A stretch of DNA of 64,000 bases from contig PMOH01000316.1 in the NCBI GenBank assembly GCA_003161515.1, forward strand, positions 1,210-65,209, read 5' to 3'. The notes under the pieces are model-generated. The model searched no databases, was not told where the DNA came from, and worked only from the letters and a program-made list of their open reading frames with translations. Numbering within the stretch: the stretch's first letter is position 1; each line of letters opens with the position of its first letter. A program made the translations under genes and the position numbers. Origin of the DNA: Deltaproteobacteria bacterium (GTDB lineage: Bacteria > Desulfobacterota > Binatia > Binatales > Binataceae). Below are positions 59,316 to 63,795 of the stretch, piece after piece.

Positions 59316-59341
59316 TTCCGAAGGGAGCCCGAGTTTCGAAA

Positions 59342-59364
59342 GGGAATTATTGATTTGAGTCCCT
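59342..59364 (+). repeat. TIR (left, cassette A)
   Basis: GGGAATTATTGATTTGAGTCCCT. Confidence 0.85.
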
Positions 59365-59371
59365 TATTACG

Positions 59372-60025
59372 ATGAAGCCGTATTTTGAAGAGGCGGGGAT
59401 TACGATTTTTCACGGTGACTGCCGCGAAGTGCTCGGAATGTATTCGGGCTTTATCGTTACCGACCCGCCTTACGGTATCGACCATCCGACCGACTATAGG
59501 GCGCGGGGGCGGGGTGCGTTGGCTGAGTGTGCTGATTATCCGCGCGTGGCTGGCGATGCCGAGCCTTTTGAGCCGTCTTTCTTGCTTGACCGACCCTGCG
59601 TGCTATTCGGAGCCAATTACTTCGCTGACAGGCTGCCGCCGTCGTCGGGCTGGCTAGTCTGGGACAAGATGCGCCCACATGGCCTCGACCAAGCGACTGC
59701 GGAACTGGCGTGGTCGAATTTCGTCAAGGGTGTTCGGGTGTTTCGCTATCTCTGGAACGGCATGATCAGGGATGGCAACGAGGCATTAGAGCACCCGACA
59801 CAGAAGCCGGTCGCGCTAATGAAATGGATTCTGGCGCTGAAATGGACGCCTGCGGGGCGGGTAATTGACCCCTTTATGGGCGCAGGCTCGACCCTAATCG
59901 CGGCGAAAGACATGGGGCGCGAGGCTGTCGGCATCGAACTCGAAGAACGGTATTGCGAAATTGCGGCACGGCGATTGAGCCAGTCAGCGATGCAATTCGG
60001 GACGCAAAATGAATCAAGGGACTAA
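59372..60025 (+). CDS. beta-class amino-DNA methyltransferase (N6-adenine or N4-cytosine)
   Basis: Motif IV TDPPYG near the N-terminus and motif I (FMGAGSTLIAAKDMGR) near the C-terminus. This circular permutation defines beta-class N6A/N4C MTases. Confidence 0.7.
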   Translation: MKPYFEEAGITIFHGDCREVLGMYSGFIVTDPPYGIDHPTDYRARGRGALAECADYPRVAGDAEPFEPSFLLDRPCVLFGANYFADRLPPSSGWLVWDKMRPHGLDQATAELAWSNFVKGVRVFRYLWNGMIRDGNEALEHPTQKPVALMKWILALKWTPAGRVIDPFMGAGSTLIAAKDMGREAVGIELEERYCEIAARRLSQSAMQFGTQNESRD

Positions 60026-60218
60026 ACTATATAATTCCCTTTCGAAAGCGGTTGGGGAGTACGACCGCCTGGTCACCGAGATGGTGGGCGTTTCCAATGT
60101 CTTAGTGCGACGCGGCGGCACCTCACGCAAGAATCTGTGGCGGGAAGAATCCCCCGAAGAGGCGATGAAGCGGTTCGGGCAGCCAGCGCCGACGAATCCG
60201 CTGCATGTGAACCGATGA
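60009..60218 (+). CDS. hypothetical small protein (N-terminus encoded by TIR; start doubtful)
   Basis: 69-aa ORF. Its first roughly 13 codons lie in the right TIR and TSD of cassette A. Confidence 0.25.
   Translation: MNQGTKLYNSLSKAVGEYDRLVTEMVGVSNVLVRRGGTSRKNLWREESPEEAMKRFGQPAPTNPLHVNR
60017..60039 (-). repeat. TIR (right, cassette A, degenerate)
   Basis: The reverse complement reads GGGAATTATATAGTTTAGTCCCT. Ends are conserved and the centre has diverged. Confidence 0.6.
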
Positions 60219-60448
60219 CTCTACCTGTCGACCCGAGAGTCCGGCGCTTGGAACCGGAAGTGGTTTCGCCGGAGACCGAACGCGAAGCGCTCCACGTTCG
60301 TTTCCAATTCGACACAATCTACGAACATGGCTGCGGCCTAGCTCTCGGCATCGGTCACATCGAGAGCAGCGACCACAGCTATGCCGTAACGATGCGGCGA
60401 CTAGCCGACGGACGTGTCGAGGTTCTGCACGTCCGGGAGATGCGGTAA
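60215..60448 (+). CDS. hypothetical small protein
   Basis: 77 aa from the ATG at 60215. ATGA overlap upstream and TAATG overlap downstream. Confidence 0.3.
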   Translation: MTLPVDPRVRRLEPEVVSPETEREALHVRFQFDTIYEHGCGLALGIGHIESSDHSYAVTMRRLADGRVEVLHVREMR

Positions 60449-60777
60449 TGGCAATTCGAATCCAGCGGAAGCGCACGCGTGGTTGGAAAGCTCCTGAAGG
60501 CGCTGTCTACGTCGGGCGTCCGACCGAATGGGGGAATCCTTGGACGGTTGGGCTCGTGGCCTGCGGCTGTCGCTCAGCAGGCGAATGCGATCACAATTGC
60601 TTTCGCGTCGAAACCGCCGAAGAGGCCGTCGATATGTACCGTCGGTGGGCGTCCGGTTGGAGCGATGAGAAAAAGCAGCGTTGTCGAGATCAATTGAGTG
60701 GAAAAGATCAGATGGACTGGTGTTCACTCGACAAGCCCTGCCACGCGGACGTGACGTTGGAGATCGCGAACGCATGA
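60448..60777 (+). CDS. DUF4326-family protein
   Basis: RKRTRGWKAPEGAVYVGRPTEWGNPW is the characteristic DUF4326 N-terminal signature. Confidence 0.5.
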   Translation: MAIRIQRKRTRGWKAPEGAVYVGRPTEWGNPWTVGLVACGCRSAGECDHNCFRVETAEEAVDMYRRWASGWSDEKKQRCRDQLSGKDQMDWCSLDKPCHADVTLEIANA

Positions 60778-61355
60778 GAGTCCTGCTAACCCAGAGCGAG
60801 CGCCTGAACTTCTTCGTCGCCAAGCTGACGTATTGGGACCTCACGTTCGAGCCTCGAGGCCTCGCCAGCGTCGAACTCTGTCTCTGCGAAGAGACCGAGA
60901 AAAGAGACCACCGCCTCCGCCGGTCGGCCGGCATGAAACACCTGGCCGAGTGCCCCGCCACGGATAGCGAAATGGAATTCATCGAGCCGCTTTGGGCCCG
61001 ATGCTGCGCGATCGCCATCGTCGGCCGCATCGGATTCATCAAGCACGCGCCGAAGCCTTGGCGAGTCTATTTCCGCGACCTGCTCGATCAGCGCGAGCCG
61101 CGCGCGGCCGCCCTCGAGGACGGCAGGATGCGGATGCTCGCCGTGGGCGCCCGGCTGCAGGGAATCAACGCGAAGTACAACGAGAAAGAGGCGCTGGTGT
61201 TCATGCTCAAGATCGTCGCGACGATCGCGCGCGCCGGCGGCCGCGAAGAGATTCGGGAATTCCTCAACGGGAATCCGGTTCCCGCGTCGATCCGATCGCT
61301 GGGCTACAGAACCATTGTCGACGATCTCTTGCGCGCAATGGAGTTGCCGTCGTGA
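60774..61355 (+). CDS. hypothetical protein
   Basis: 193 aa from the ATG at 60774 (ATGA-coupled). The ORF extends upstream to 60681. Confidence 0.35.
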   Translation: MRVLLTQSERLNFFVAKLTYWDLTFEPRGLASVELCLCEETEKRDHRLRRSAGMKHLAECPATDSEMEFIEPLWARCCAIAIVGRIGFIKHAPKPWRVYFRDLLDQREPRAAALEDGRMRMLAVGARLQGINAKYNEKEALVFMLKIVATIARAGGREEIREFLNGNPVPASIRSLGYRTIVDDLLRAMELPS

Positions 61356-61362
61356 AAGTAAG

Positions 61363-61385
61363 GGGAATTATTGATTTGAGTCCCT
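61363..61385 (+). repeat. TIR (left, cassette B)
   Basis: GGGAATTATTGATTTGAGTCCCT. Confidence 0.85.
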
Positions 61386-61394
61386 CGCCGCACA

Positions 61395-61862
61395 ATGCAA
61401 ATCCGTAGAGCACAACCATGCGAAACGCGAAAACTAAAAGACTGGATCGCAGCGAATCACTACCTGCAATCCGCTCCTCCGGGATTTGTGCATCTCTACG
61501 AGTTCATCGAGGGCAAGGAATTGATCGGCGGGATGATTTTGGGCCGCCCATCCGCGAAGCAATACAACCCCGACAAAATCCTCCAACTTCACCGCGTCTT
61601 TTTCATCGACGATACCGCCCCGAATGTCGAGAGTCAGGGACTTTCCATGATGCGCCGCATGGTTCGGGTTTGGATACCGCAGATTCGCGGTCTCTTGTCC
61701 TATTCCGATCCAAGCATCGGCCACGAAGGGACGATTTACGAGGCCGATATGTGGTGTCCGCTCGGCCTGACCGACGAACACTGGGGCTACGGGTGGAAAA
61801 GCCGCGAAGGACGGCGCGATCAACGGGTCAGTCGCAAGATGCGATGGTTTAGAACGCCATGA
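61395..61862 (+). CDS. hypothetical protein (cargo of cassette B)
   Basis: 155 aa with a hydrophobic-core-like pattern (IAANHYLQSAPPGFVHLYEF ... GGMILGRP). No motif I can assign. The stop overlaps the next start (ATGA). Confidence 0.4.
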   Translation: MQIRRAQPCETRKLKDWIAANHYLQSAPPGFVHLYEFIEGKELIGGMILGRPSAKQYNPDKILQLHRVFFIDDTAPNVESQGLSMMRRMVRVWIPQIRGLLSYSDPSIGHEGTIYEADMWCPLGLTDEHWGYGWKSREGRRDQRVSRKMRWFRTP

Positions 61863-62215
61863 AGGGACTCAAATCAATAATTCCCAAAGTAAGTCTCGGC
61901 GGCGAGAGCGGCAACAAGTACGGCGCGCGCAAGACAAGCTGCGGGAAGCACATCCATGATTCCAATCGCGAAGCTCAACGATGTGCAGAACTGCGGCTCA
62001 TGGAGAAGGGCCGCTTGATCGCTGATTTGATATTCCAGCCAGCGTTTCCCATGTGGTACGGCGACAACCTGATCTGCACTTACGTCGCTGATTTTATGTA
62101 CCACGAGGAAGATGAACTCGTTGTCGAAGACGTGAAGGGTAAAGCCACAGATAGTTACATTATCAAGCGCAAAATGCTCAAGGCATTTTATGGAATCACG
62201 GTGAGGGAGACTTGA
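61859..62215 (+). CDS. DUF1064-family protein (restriction-endonuclease-like fold)
   Basis: NKYGARKTSCGKHIHDSNREAQR ... YVADFMY ... VEDVKGKATDSYIIKRKMLKAFYG matches the DUF1064 pattern. The first 9 codons (MKGLKSIIP) are encoded by the right TIR of cassette B. Confidence 0.5.
   Translation: MKGLKSIIPKVSLGGESGNKYGARKTSCGKHIHDSNREAQRCAELRLMEKGRLIADLIFQPAFPMWYGDNLICTYVADFMYHEEDELVVEDVKGKATDSYIIKRKMLKAFYGITVRET
61863..61885 (-). repeat. TIR (right, cassette B)
   Basis: AGGGACTCAAATCAATAATTCCC, a perfect inverted copy. Confidence 0.85.
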
Positions 62216-62856
62216 ACGTCAGAGATCGCATAATCGGCTTTAGTCGGGTCAGGGCTTCTGAACTTAAGGCCAATCCTTCCAATCCGAGGCAGCACGATGA
62301 GCGCGAGCGCGAGGTCTTTGGCGACCTACTCTCACGGATCGGGTTTGCCGGAGCACTTCTCGCATATCGCAACGCCGACGGCGAACTCGAGCTGGTAGAT
62401 GGCGCGCTACGCAAGGATCTGATGGAGGACCAAGAAGTCCCCGTGCTCGAGACTGACCTGACTCCCGACGAAGCGCGCGAGCTTCTGCTGTTCTTCGATC
62501 GCGTCGCCGGGATGGCGACCTACAATCCGGAGATCACGCTCGAGCTGGTCGAGCGTCTCAACCTGAACGGCGACGCGGCCGCGCTCGCGCACCTCGCCGA
62601 TGAGATGGAGGCGGAGGCGCAGATCGAGAGCATGTCCTCGGAAGCCAATCCGGAGACCGCGGGCGGTACGTCGCAACCAGGTGGTCGGAAGAAGCGCGGC
62701 GAGGATACGGGACCCACGCCGATCAAGGCTGTGATTTCAGTTTTCGAGCTCCAGATAGTGGAACGTGCGCTCAGTGCGACCCAAGAAAAAAATCGCGGGA
62801 CCGCACTCAGCATCATCTGCCAAGCATTTCTCAATTCGATAGGAGAGACGAATTGA
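62212..62856 (+). CDS. ParB-like nuclease domain protein
   Basis: ParB N-terminal domain box (LKANPSNPRQH ... ELVDGALR), then an acidic helical C-terminus. Confidence 0.55.
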   Translation: MNVRDRIIGFSRVRASELKANPSNPRQHDEREREVFGDLLSRIGFAGALLAYRNADGELELVDGALRKDLMEDQEVPVLETDLTPDEARELLLFFDRVAGMATYNPEITLELVERLNLNGDAAALAHLADEMEAEAQIESMSSEANPETAGGTSQPGGRKKRGEDTGPTPIKAVISVFELQIVERALSATQEKNRGTALSIICQAFLNSIGETN

Positions 62857-63053
62857 AAACTCTACGTCCAAAGAAAAAACCAATCTGGGGGATGCTTATC
62901 TATCGCACTACCAGCAAAGGCGTAGACCACATGCCGGAGATCCTGAATCAGATGACCGCCCAAGAGGCTCGGCAAGCGAAGGTCTGCATGGCGGGCGGCA
63001 ACACGATGGTCGTGTTCTACCCGATGCTCAAGAAAGGGGAATTATTGATTTGA
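62853..63053 (+). CDS. hypothetical small protein
   Basis: 66 aa. Its last codons run into the left TIR of cassette C. Confidence 0.3.
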   Translation: MKTLRPKKKPIWGMLIYRTTSKGVDHMPEILNQMTAQEARQAKVCMAGGNTMVVFYPMLKKGELLI

Positions 63054-63059
63054 GTCCCT
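63037..63059 (+). repeat. TIR (left, cassette C)
   Basis: GGGAATTATTGATTTGAGTCCCT. Confidence 0.85.
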
Positions 63060-63076
63060 CAATCAAAAACTCTCTC

Positions 63077-63757
63077 GTTTGGTTAGACCTTTGCTCCGGC
63101 CTAGGTGGCGCGAGTCAGCCGGCGTTGGATCGCGGTTGGAGGGTTATCAGAATCGACCTTGACTCTCGCTTCAGGCCCGACATCGTGGCCGACGTTCGCG
63201 CGCTGCCGCTCAAGGGCTATTGGGAATCTAGGGCGCTCCGCATCGATGTGCTGTGGGCGAGTCCGCCTTGCCAGGATTTTAGCAAACACGGACTGCGTTG
63301 CTTCTATCCGAATCCGCCGGAGCCGGATTTATCAATCGCTAACGCCGTCGGGGCGTTGATCAACCGACTTCAACCGCGTTTCTGGGTGATTGAGAACGTG
63401 TGGGCGGCTCGTCCGTGGTTCACGAAGCTGTTCGGTCAGGTACGCGCCAAGCCGCCAGGCCACGCGCTGTGGTCCAACCTCGCATTCCTGCTTCCGAACA
63501 TCGAGCCGCACAAGAGTTCCAGCGTCCAACTTAAGTCGAGAGGCATCGGAGCGATTCCAGGAAAACCAGGCGATTGGCGCAAGACCTATCGAGGCCTTAG
63601 AGAGAGGCATGCCACCGGAATAAGACCCGTCAAAGCTACGCCGGGGCGCTGGATGGGCAGTCACCACGATATGACGCCAGCGGAAGCAGCCGTAATTCCC
63701 TATCCGATCGGTGAGGCCATCTGCGCAGCGGTGGAGCGAAGGGACTCAAATCAATAA
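63077..63757 (+). CDS. DNA cytosine-5 methyltransferase-like protein (short)
   Basis: Motif I (DLCSGLGG), motif IV (SPPCQDFS, the catalytic Pro-Cys) and motif VI (ENV). It is only about 227-235 aa with no clear motifs IX/X or target-recognition domain. Start is ambiguous (TTG at 63050 inside the TIR, or TTG at 63077). The stop TAA lies inside the right TIR. Confidence 0.5.
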   Translation, partial: VWLDLCSGLGGASQPALDRGWRVIRIDLDSRFRPDIVADVRALPLKGYWESRALRIDVLWASPPCQDFSKHGLRCFYPNPPEPDLSIANAVGALINRLQPRFWVIENVWAARPWFTKLFGQVRAKPPGHALWSNLAFLLPNIEPHKSSSVQLKSRGIGAIPGKPGDWRKTYRGLRERHATGIRPVKATPGRWMGSHHDMTPAEAAVIPYPIGEAICAAVERRDSNQ

Positions 63758-63762
63758 TTCCC
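63740..63762 (-). repeat. TIR (right, cassette C)
   Basis: AGGGACTCAAATCAATAATTCCC. Confidence 0.85.
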
Positions 63763-63795
63763 CAAGAAAGGGGTCAGGTACGAGGGGAGAGAAAA

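What the first reader, a model, noticed from the sequence alone, without database searches (positions are those of the whole stretch)
61395..61862. Unknown 155-aa cargo protein of cassette B: candidate novel DNA-modification or anti-defence function
The other two cassettes carry DNA methyltransferases. This one carries a compact globular protein (IAANHYLQSAPPGFVHLYEF ... ILGRPSAKQYNPDKILQLHRVFFIDD) with no motif I can assign. By association, it is a candidate DNA-modification, modification-dependent or anti-restriction factor.
Basis: inference. Interest (0 to 1): 0.6.

Follow-up and report, generated by a model that had tools for sequence, protein, structure and literature searches.

The report
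Mom-like DNA-modification gene on transposon cassette
The "unknown" 155-residue protein is a compact relative of phage Mu's Mom enzyme, which chemically masks adenines in phage DNA against restriction enzymes, and here it rides in a 523-bp transposase-less IS1595-type cassette that has recently hopped between soil (Acidobacteriota) phages.

Summary
The ORF (61395-61862, +, 155 aa) is real and under strong purifying selection (dN/dS about 0.08). It is not an orphan. It scores 58.8 bits on Pfam PF25680 (Mom; cut-off 27.1). Its AlphaFold model (pLDDT 90.9) has the crystal structure of phage Mu Mom (8BV8) as best PDB match. Six of seven Mu Mom active-site residues are kept, including the essential R111 and S124 (here R67 and S80). 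It lacks R151, and the essential helix-turn-helix-like insertion is cut to a 23-residue basic loop, so the exact chemistry is uncertain.

The gene sits in a 523-bp cassette bounded by perfect 23-nt inverted repeats and an 8-bp target duplication (AAAGTAAG). The same repeats bound autonomous elements that encode an IS1595-family transposase. Copies of the cassette, identical over all 523 bp, lie at other sites with other 8-bp duplications. Two metagenome contigs show the exact empty site, with 100% identical flanks.

The more interesting point is the vehicle. Minimal IS1595 cassettes carry DNA-modification genes (Mom, an N6/N4 methyltransferase and C5 methyltransferases) among phages.

The parts
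61355..61362 (.). Left copy of the 8-bp target-site duplication, AAAGTAAG
   Evidence: It is identical to 61886-61893. It is present only once in the empty-site contigs L106 and L107.
61363..61385 (+). Left terminal inverted repeat, GGGAATTATTGATTTGAGTCCCT
   Evidence: It is perfectly complementary to 61863-61885. The same 23-mer ends autonomous IS1595-family elements in L012, L016, L018, L006 and L023.
61395..61862 (+). mom-like gene: a 155-aa GNAT-fold protein of the Mom family
   Evidence: Pfam PF25680 scores 58.8 bits and PHROG 1384 gives 3.4e-25. hhalign against Mu Mom gives 97.6% probability. The AF2 model has pLDDT 90.9. The Foldseek top hit is 8bv8, E 1.5e-10, TM 0.79. dN/dS is about 0.08.
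61863..61885 (-). Right terminal inverted repeat
   Evidence: The mom stop codon TGA (61860-61862) abuts it.
61886..61893 (.). Right copy of the target-site duplication, AAAGTAAG
61352..61408 (+). Remnant of the pre-insertion GTG start of the DUF1064 gene. It now opens an 18-codon ORF that runs through the left repeat and ends 11 nt past the mom ATG.
   Evidence: Read from the sequence. In the empty site the same GTG (GTGA overlap with the upstream stop) starts the 110-aa DUF1064 gene. Any role in delivering ribosomes to mom is inference.
61859..62215 (+). Downstream DUF1064 gene. It now starts at an ATG supplied by the cassette (ATGA overlap with the mom stop) and has 8 extra N-terminal residues read through the right repeat.
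   Evidence: It is 118 aa here and 110 aa in L106 and L107. Pfam DUF1064 scores 55.2 bits.
59342..60039 (+). Sister cassette A (698 bp) carrying a 217-aa N6/N4 DNA methyltransferase (59372-60025). Its 8-bp duplication, TTTCGAAA, lies at 59334-59341 and 60040-60047.
   Evidence: Its right repeat is the GGGAATTATATAGTTTAGTCCCT subtype, also seen at the transposase end of L012, L018 and L023.
63037..63762 (+). Sister cassette C (726 bp) carrying a 235-aa C5-methyltransferase-like protein (63050-63757). Its 8-bp duplication, CAAGAAAG, lies at 63029-63036 and 63763-63770.
   Evidence: An identical 726-bp copy lies at another site in L020, with duplication CATAAAAT.

Best explanation
The ORF encodes a minimal member of the Mom family of GNAT-fold DNA-modifying enzymes. 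By analogy with phage Mu Mom, it most likely acts after replication on double-stranded phage DNA. Mu Mom takes glycine from Gly-tRNA(Gly) and transfers it to N6 of adenine, and the adduct then rearranges to N6-carbamoylmethyl-adenine. Such a bulky base blocks host restriction endonucleases. The gene is the only cargo of a 523-bp non-autonomous IS1595-family element (a mobile insertion cassette). This cassette is moved in trans by the transposase of full-length elements that share its 23-nt ends, and it makes 8-bp duplications at AT-rich targets. In this temperate myovirus-like phage it landed in the GTGA stop/start overlap between two early-region genes, co-oriented with them. It probably depends on read-through transcription. 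Together with two sister cassettes carrying methyltransferases, it would give the phage three different DNA modifications.

Shown here: family membership, fold, conserved catalytic residues, purifying selection, cassette anatomy, the autonomous partners, multiple insertion sites and the empty site.

Inferred: that DNA is the substrate, the acyl donor, the product, the anti-restriction effect, how the gene is expressed, and mobilisation in trans.
For: Family and fold:
- Pfam Mom scores 58.8 bits against a cut-off of 27.1, and PHROG 1384 gives 3.4e-25.
- phmmer against PDB finds 8BV8 'methylcarbamoylase Mom' as the only hit below E = 0.001.
- hhalign gives 97.6% probability.
- The model has pLDDT 90.9. 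Its best PDB match is Mu Mom (E 1.5e-10, TM 0.79), ahead of generic GNATs at E of about 1e-6.

Active site:
- Mu residues H58, Y59, R111, S124, D149 and Y159 align with H22, Y23, R67, S80, D105 and Y115. All are invariant or nearly invariant in 69 homologues.
- R111 and S124 are the residues reported as essential (PMC13219725).

Real gene: dN/dS is about 0.07-0.11.

Cassette:
- It has perfect 23-nt repeats and an 8-bp duplication.
- The same repeats bound elements that encode a transposase matching NF033547 (IS1595 family) at 206 bits, with the Pfam Zn_ribbon_IS1595 and DDE_Tnp_IS1595 domains.
- IS1595 elements are known to make 8-bp duplications (PMC8101967).
- A full IS1595-family element in L001 and L026 carries an 86%-identical mom as passenger, with duplication TAAATTTA.
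- The 523-bp cassette is 100% identical in L004 (AAATTAAG), L022 (CAAAATAG) and L003, and its left end (92 nt visible) is also in L011.
- L106 and L107 match the flanks at 100% over 249 and 1126 nt, with a single AAAGTAAG and no cassette.
- Ten duplications average 82% A+T, in a window that is 41% A+T.
Against: - Identity to Mu Mom is only 15-22%.
- Mu R151, reported as essential, aligns with a variable position (S107). An invariant H110 sits three residues later instead.
- The 35-residue helix-turn-helix-like insertion, whose deletion abolishes Mu Mom activity, is represented by a 23-residue basic, Trp-rich loop. That loop is predicted as coil at pLDDT 62-80.
- The N-terminal ~30 and C-terminal ~20 residues of Mu Mom are absent.
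- No member of this short subfamily has been assayed, as far as the searched literature shows.
- No promoter-like site was found in the cassette. At the L022 site the gene is convergent with its neighbour, so expression is unproven.
- No transposase is present in the window.
Confidence: 0.72

Rival explanations
1. The fold and family are the same, but the chemistry differs. The short enzyme would use another acyl donor (another aminoacyl-tRNA, or an acyl-CoA) or another target base or sequence, and so install a DNA modification that has not been described.
For: R151 is lost. The insertion proposed to bind DNA is shortened, and the N-terminal basic segment proposed to help tRNA binding is absent. 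An invariant H110 and an invariant or near-invariant G133-W134 have no noted counterpart in Mu Mom. The authors of the Mu structure state that co-substrate and substrate could not be predicted from structure or alignment.
Against: The residues around the acyl-transfer centre (R67, S80, D105, H22/Y23, Y115) are the Mu set. Nothing in the sequence points to a particular alternative donor.
Confidence: 0.25
2. It is a GNAT acyltransferase acting on something other than DNA, such as a protein, a small molecule or an aminoacyl-tRNA (as in TacT-type toxins). The Mom match would then reflect only shared ancestry.
For: After Mu Mom, the structural matches are ordinary GNAT acetyltransferases with TM 0.6-0.7. 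Some phage records annotate homologues simply as 'acetyltransferase'. The DNA-binding insertion is reduced.
Against: The sequence match is to the Mom family specifically and is above the curated cut-off. No other Pfam GNAT family was hit at E <= 0.1. Homologues are overwhelmingly phage-borne. The sister cassettes with the same ends carry DNA methyltransferases. The basic tail (9 K/R in 31 residues, pI 9.5) fits nucleic-acid binding.
Confidence: 0.12
3. The inverted repeats are not transposon ends. They would be regulatory or recombination signals of the phage (promoter/terminator modules, 'moron' boundaries or integron-like sites), and the gene would be an ordinary resident phage gene.
For: Close homologues in other phages (L025 at 88%, L002/L028 at 72%) have no such repeats and look resident. 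Cargo ORFs use start or stop codons inside the repeats.
Against: Every complete cassette in the window has a different perfect 8-bp direct duplication. The same ends flank IS1595 transposase genes. Copies identical over all 523 bp lie in unrelated flanks. The precise empty site exists. No promoter or terminator consensus lies in the repeats.
Confidence: 0.02
4. The gene is a decaying passenger with no function.
For: It has no promoter of its own and no regulator. Mu mom, by contrast, is tightly controlled because it is toxic (abstract of PMC3378877 as listed).
Against: The ORF is intact and dN/dS is about 0.08. Twenty-four positions are invariant across 69 homologues, including the catalytic set. 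Copies at different sites are identical, which implies recent spread.
Confidence: 0.03

Closest known systems
Phage Mu Mom (Pfam PF25680; PDB 8BV8). It is a tRNA-dependent adenine N6 hypermodification enzyme (Silva et al. 2026, PMC13219725; Karambelkar et al. 2020, PMC7261163).
   Same: Both have the GNAT fold, and Mu Mom is the best structural and profile match. H58, Y59, R111, S124, D149 and Y159 are conserved. An invariant Trp precedes the HY motif, as W48 does in Mu. Both are phage-borne and basic.
   Different: The window protein has 155 aa against 241, with 15-22% identity. R151 is not conserved. The essential HTH-like insertion (175-209) is reduced to a 23-residue loop, and the N- and C-terminal extensions are missing. 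There is no com-like regulator. The gene is carried by a transposon cassette rather than sitting at a fixed late-operon position.
Short 'Mom-like DNA modification protein' or 'acetyltransferase' of cultured phages, for example Paenibacillus larvae phages Vegas, Hayley and API480 (about 147-154 aa)
   Same: The proteins are of similar length and are 41-43% identical over 92-97% of the protein. They are annotated Mom-like in RefSeq.
   Different: Those genes sit in the lysis module and are not bounded by the repeats described here. As far as I could find, none has been characterised biochemically.
IS1595-family insertion sequences with passenger genes ('transporter IS'; Siguier, Gagnevin & Chandler 2009, cited in PMC8101967 and PMC3129680)
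   Same: L001 and L026 are exactly this: a Zn-ribbon plus DDE IS1595 transposase with mom as passenger, between inverted repeats and an 8-bp duplication. The repeat start GGGAATTAT fits, from memory of ISfinder, the ISNwi1-group consensus ggnnatTAT. I could not verify this in the library.
   Different: The window element has no transposase at all. Only the 23-nt ends are shared with the autonomous copies.
Mobile insertion cassettes (MIC231 of Bacillus cereus; De Palmenaer et al. 2004, cited in PMC3129680)
   Same: IS ends flank a non-transposase gene, there is a target duplication, and mobilisation in trans by the cognate IS is presumed.
   Different: The IS family differs (IS1595, not IS4/IS231). 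The hosts are phage genomes of Acidobacteriota. The cargo is DNA-modification genes, and the cassettes are extremely compact: 7-15 nt from repeat to start codon, with the stop codon at or inside the other repeat.
Replacement of mom by DNA methyltransferases in Mu-like prophages (hin1523/nma1821; PMC3299994)
   Same: It illustrates that Mom and methyltransferases are interchangeable anti-restriction modules in phages (abstract listed).
   Different: In that case the exchange is at a fixed locus. No transposon vehicle is described.

Membership tests
Mom protein family (Pfam PF25680) | Score above the curated Pfam gathering threshold | tested here: met
   58.8 bits against 27.1; residues 8-130 match profile positions 6-136 of 202. 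Most of the 88 homologues (all full-length ones) carry the same precomputed hit.
Mom protein family (Pfam PF25680) | GNAT fold with Mu Mom as the nearest solved structure | tested here: met
   The AF2 model has pLDDT 90.9 and pTM 0.83. Foldseek ranks 8bv8_B and 8bv8_A first and second, at E 1.5e-10 and TMq 0.79. Generic GNATs follow at E >= 1.7e-6.
Mom protein family (Pfam PF25680) | Catalytic residues R111 and S124, reported as essential in Mu Mom | tested here: met
   They align with R67 (invariant) and S80 (nearly invariant). Their roles are taken from PMC13219725.
Mom protein family (Pfam PF25680) | Other active-site residues: H58, Y59, D149, Y159 | tested here: met
   They align with H22, Y23, D105 and Y115, all invariant or nearly invariant.
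Mom protein family (Pfam PF25680) | R151 (the R151A variant had no detectable activity in Mu Mom) | tested here: not met
   It aligns with S107, a variable column holding S, E, T, Q, V and K. An invariant H110 aligns with Mu R154.
Mom protein family (Pfam PF25680) | HTH-like insertion between the last two strands (Mu 175-209); deleting it abolishes activity | tested here: not met
   Only 23 residues (125-147) lie between strands 121-125 and 149-153. They are predicted as coil at pLDDT 62-80. The pairwise alignment shows about 12 fewer residues than in Mu. The loop is basic, and Trp/Gly positions are conserved (G133 invariant, W134 nearly invariant), so a reduced equivalent is possible.
Mom protein family (Pfam PF25680) | Formation of N6-carbamoylmethyl-dA in dsDNA from Gly-tRNA(Gly), with protection from restriction | not testable with these tools
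   This needs nucleoside LC-MS and restriction assays.
XF1762 family (NCBIfam NF045478) | Score above the curated cut-off | tested here: not met
   25.2 bits against a cut-off of 50.
IS1595-family non-autonomous element (mobile insertion cassette) | Terminal inverted repeats shared with elements that encode an IS1595-family transposase | tested here: met
   The identical 23-mer ends L012/L023, L016/L017, L018 and L006/L010. Their 306-313-aa proteins match DDE_Tnp_IS1595 (150 bits), Zn_ribbon_IS1595 and NF033547 (206 bits).
IS1595-family non-autonomous element (mobile insertion cassette) | 8-bp target-site duplication | tested here: met
   AAAGTAAG here. Nine further elements have perfect 8-bp duplications, each different. 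The family property is taken from PMC8101967.
IS1595-family non-autonomous element (mobile insertion cassette) | No transposase inside, and a non-transposition cargo | tested here: met
   The 523 bp hold only the mom-like ORF. tblastn with the transposase finds nothing in the window; the best E-value is 0.37.
IS1595-family non-autonomous element (mobile insertion cassette) | Evidence of movement: identical copies at different sites, and an unoccupied site | tested here: met
   Identical 523-bp copies lie in L003, L004 and L022, and the left end is in L011. The empty site is in L106 and L107, with 100% identical flanks.
IS1595-family non-autonomous element (mobile insertion cassette) | Mobilisation in trans by the cognate transposase | not testable with these tools
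   This needs a transposition assay.
ISNwi1 subgroup of IS1595 | End consensus ggnnatTAT | tested here: inconclusive
   GGGAATTAT fits the consensus as I recall it from ISfinder. No paper in the library mentions ISNwi1, so I could not check the consensus.

The most novel reading that the evidence does not exclude
A family of minimal, transposase-less IS1595 cassettes acts as a shuttle specialised for anti-restriction genes among Acidobacteriota phages. Each cassette is gene-sized, and the cargoes seen are Mom, an N6/N4 methyltransferase, two kinds of C5 methyltransferase, and unknown cargoes that may be new anti-defence genes. In addition, the truncated Mom-like cargo (no R151, no HTH-like insertion) would install an adenine or other base modification that is chemically or mechanistically distinct from Mu's.
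Probability: 0.25. Interest if true: 0.7.

Novelty: new member of a known kind. Interest (0 to 1): 0.42.

Why it matters
The protein itself extends a family whose chemistry was only recently worked out: tRNA-dependent glycylation of adenine in DNA. This natural minimal version lacks two features reported as essential in Mu Mom. It could therefore show which parts of the enzyme are really needed, or reveal a different modification.

The vehicle matters more. Here is direct sequence evidence that phage DNA-modification genes move as gene-sized IS-derived cassettes. The evidence consists of identical copies at several sites, a different 8-bp duplication at each, an exact empty site, and autonomous partners with the same ends. 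This offers a concrete mechanism for how phages swap anti-restriction functions. It also offers a practical handle: the 23-nt repeat can be used to fish out further cargo genes, including unknown ones that are candidates for new anti-defence functions.

Tried and rejected
- **Transposase in the window.** tblastn with the L001 transposase found nothing (best E = 0.37). The cassette must be mobilised from elsewhere.
- **XF1762 family membership.** The score is below the cut-off.
- **Repeats around close mom homologues.** I tested whether they are always repeat-flanked. Only L001 and L026 are. L025, L002 and L027-L036 are not, so cargo status is a recent capture and not a family trait.
- **Related phages through neighbouring proteins.** Viral contigs gave nothing useful for the 224-aa neighbour or the DUF1064 protein. 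Exact look-up of the 224-aa protein failed. Exact look-up of the ParB-like neighbour succeeded and gave the empty site.
- **ArdA-like identity of the acidic cargo in L013.** It has no Pfam or PHROG hit, so this remains speculation.
- **Families for other cargoes.** The 136-aa cargo and the 125-aa and 159-aa second ORFs of the autonomous elements have no hits.
- **Promoter or terminator in the repeats.** The consensus scan found none.
- **ISNwi1 end consensus.** I could not verify it in the literature.
- **Prior description of IS1595 cassettes carrying Mom or methyltransferases in phages.** None was found. The library covers open-access papers only.
- **L003.** One flank equals the L022 site and the other does not, with no matching duplication. 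I treated it as a chimeric assembly or a recombinant, not as an independent clean insertion.

Full report
**1. Observation**

It is a real gene. A search of 5.8 billion proteins returned 88 relatives down to 46% identity, and nearly all of them carry the same precomputed Pfam hit. A search of 50%-identity representatives found 577 clusters at E <= 1e-3.

Seven homologues of the same length were compared codon by codon. Non-synonymous differences were 0.10-0.34 per site, while synonymous sites were near saturation (0.64-0.82). This gives dN/dS of about 0.07-0.11 where it could be computed.

The window is a temperate, myovirus-like phage. It encodes a large terminase, tail sheath, tape measure and integrase. 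The closest genomic relatives come from Acidobacteriota (Terriglobales and 'Acidiferrales' MAGs, and Acidobacteria bacterium AB60).

**2. What the protein is**

It is not an orphan.

- Pfam PF25680 (Mom) scores 58.8 bits against a gathering score of 27.1.
- PHROG 1384, 'Mom-like DNA modification protein', scores 3.4e-25.
- NCBIfam XF1762 is below its cut-off.
- Against PDB sequences, the only hit below E = 0.001 is 8BV8, 'methylcarbamoylase Mom' of phage Mu.
- A profile of 21 homologues aligns to Mu Mom with 97.6% probability.
- An AlphaFold2 model built on 69 homologues is confident (pLDDT 90.9, pTM 0.83). Its two best matches among 350,000 PDB chains are the two chains of 8BV8 (E 1.5e-10, TM 0.79). 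Ordinary GNAT acetyltransferases follow at E of about 1e-6.

**3. How Mom works, and how far that transfers**

Silva et al. (2026, PMC13219725) report that Mu Mom transfers glycine from Gly-tRNA(Gly) to N6 of adenine in dsDNA. The adduct then rearranges on the base to N6-carbamoylmethyl-dA, which blocks restriction.

They name H58, Y59, R111, S124, D149, R151 and Y159 as the active-site set. R111, S124 and R151 were required for activity. W48 is needed for dimerisation, and an HTH-like insertion (about 175-209) is essential.

In the profile alignment, read against family conservation:

| Mu Mom residue | Window protein | Conservation in the family |
|---|---|---|
| H58, Y59 | H22, Y23 | invariant, nearly invariant |
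| R111 | R67 | invariant |
| S124 | S80 | nearly invariant |
| D149 | D105 | invariant |
| Y159 | Y115 | invariant |
| R151 | S107 | variable column |

An invariant W17 precedes the HY motif, as W48 does in Mu. An invariant H110 lies three residues after S107.

After the shared Gly (G124 here, G168 in Mu) only 31 residues remain, against 73 in Mu. The segment between the last two strands is 23 residues long, basic and Trp-rich. It is predicted as coil with lower confidence. Mu's N-terminal ~30 and C-terminal ~20 residues are absent.

The acyl-transfer centre is therefore conserved, but the parts proposed to hold DNA and tRNA are reduced. I take 'Mom-type DNA base acylation' as the most likely function (about 0.7) and the identical product as roughly even odds.

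Short Mom-like proteins of this size are already annotated in cultured phages. Paenibacillus larvae phages carry homologues at 41-43% identity. I found no biochemical work on them.

**4. The cassette**

The gene is bounded by perfect 23-nt inverted repeats (61363-61385 and 61863-61885) and by an 8-bp direct repeat, AAAGTAAG (61355-61362 and 61886-61893).

Two sister cassettes have the same ends:

- Cassette A (59342-60039) has duplication TTTCGAAA and carries an N6/N4 methyltransferase.
- Cassette C (63037-63762) has duplication CAAGAAAG and carries a short C5-methyltransferase-like protein.

Scans of public contigs with the repeat recovered the following.

- **Autonomous elements of 1.57-1.79 kb with the same ends.** They encode a 306-313-aa transposase with Zn_ribbon_IS1595 and DDE_Tnp_IS1595 domains, scoring 206 bits on NF033547. 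L012/L023 have duplication AAAATTTT and L016 has ATTAATAG.
- **The Mom cassette, identical over all 523 bp.** It occurs in L004 (AAATTAAG), L022 (CAAAATAG) and L003, and its end occurs in L011.
- **Cassette C, identical over its 726 bp,** at another site in L020 (CATAAAAT).
- **Other cargoes.** These are a 347-aa C5 methyltransferase (L007/L008), a 136-aa protein of unknown function (L008/L009/L014) and, in L013, an acidic ORF of at least 199 aa.

Independently, L001 and L026 show an 86%-identical mom as passenger inside a complete IS1595-family element. Its ends are related but distinct, and its duplication is TAAATTTA. Its transposase is 67% identical to that of the same-end elements.

An 8-bp duplication and a Zn-finger plus DDE transposase are the published hallmarks of the IS1595 family (PMC8101967). 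'Mobile insertion cassette' and 'transporter IS' are the established terms for such derivatives (PMC3129680).

The cassettes share only the 23-24 nt ends with the autonomous copies. Cargo ORFs start 7-15 nt inside one repeat and stop at or inside the other.

Targets are AT-rich. Ten duplications average 82% A+T, whereas only 6.5% of the window's 8-mers have 6 or more A/T.

**5. The empty site**

An exact look-up of the ParB-like neighbour found two contigs, L106 and L107. They match window 61114-61362 and 61886-63011 at 100% identity. The 8 nt AAAGTAAG is present once and there is no cassette.

The junction reads gccgtcGTGAaagtaagtctc. The stop of the upstream gene overlaps the GTG start of the DUF1064 gene, which is 110 aa there.

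In the window the cassette split this overlap.

- The old GTG now opens an 18-codon ORF through the left repeat, ending just past the mom ATG.
- An ATG inside the cassette overlaps the mom stop (ATGA). It reads in frame through the right repeat into the DUF1064 gene, which is now 118 aa.
- Operon-style translation could therefore have survived the insertion. This last step is inference.

No promoter-like site lies in the cassette. In L022 the gene is convergent with its neighbour. Expression is not established.

**6. Comparison with the known, and novelty**

The protein is a new, minimal member of a known family. It passes the family's curated threshold and the fold and catalytic-residue tests, but fails two features reported as essential in Mu (R151 and the HTH-like insertion).

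The vehicle is a mobile insertion cassette of the IS1595 family, which is also a known kind. From memory, the end GGGAATTAT fits the ISNwi1-group consensus, but I could not verify this.

I did not find any description of the combination: gene-sized IS1595 cassettes that carry DNA-modification genes and hop among phage genomes. This was an open-access search only.

Of the six non-transposase cargo types seen with these ends, four are DNA-modification enzymes.

**7. Verdict**

The functional inference is supported, and the 'unknown/novel' label is not. The finding is of moderate interest, mainly for the cassette biology and for the natural minimal Mom variant.

Noticed in passing
window 59342-60039 and 63037-63762: The two sister cassettes have the same ends and perfect 8-bp duplications (TTTCGAAA and CAAGAAAG). 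Cassette A has one repeat of each subtype, like the autonomous elements. Cassette C's 235-aa C5-methyltransferase-like ORF starts at a TTG inside the left repeat and ends at a TAA inside the right repeat. It is short for a C5 methyltransferase: motifs I, IV and VI are visible, but no obvious target-recognition or C-terminal part.
   Followed up: partly
L013:1760-2431: One repeat plus the transposase-type promoter is followed not by a transposase but by a strongly acidic ORF of at least 199 aa (MLHTYKIDSSKSGHDATSWGDAF...). It has no Pfam or PHROG hit. It could be a DNA-mimic or anti-restriction protein, but this is speculative.
   Followed up: partly
L008:5111-5582 (also in L009 and L014): A 472-bp cassette with the same ends and duplication CTTCAAAT carries a 136-aa protein with no family hit. 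It sits next to a second cassette carrying a 347-aa C5 methyltransferase. That second cassette's flanks (TAAACATG / TTTTGTTA) do not form a duplication, which suggests a rearrangement between cassettes.
   Followed up: partly
L012:204-1844, L016:412-2020, L018:148-1719: In the autonomous elements, TTGACA, 17 nt and TATATT/TACATT follow immediately after one repeat, and the transposase ATG lies about 6 nt downstream. This looks like a promoter abutting the end with a nearly leaderless mRNA. These elements also hold a second ORF of unknown function (125 aa; or 159 aa and Cys-rich).
   Followed up: no
L106:1399-2110 compared with window 63012 onward: The empty-site contig diverges from the window 18 nt before cassette C's duplication. 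It carries instead a 220-aa ORF with a VLDAYAGYG motif, possibly another methyltransferase. It also diverges upstream of window 61114. This indicates a mosaic structure around the cassettes.
   Followed up: no
L003:1-720: The right flank of this Mom cassette copy equals the L022 site in reverse complement, but the left flank is different and there is no matching duplication. It is either a chimeric metagenome assembly across the repeat or a recombinant between two insertions.
   Followed up: partly
protein representatives P0127, P0133, P0135, P0141, P0171, P0203: Some relatives carry the Mom-like domain within proteins of 430-730 aa. The fused partner domains were not examined.
   Followed up: no
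window 60448-60777 and 62212-62856: The neighbouring genes are a DUF4326 protein and a ParB-like protein. The ParB-like protein also matches the N-terminal part of PHROG 498, a ParB-methyltransferase fusion family. The region between the cassettes is thus itself rich in genes linked to DNA modification.
   Followed up: no
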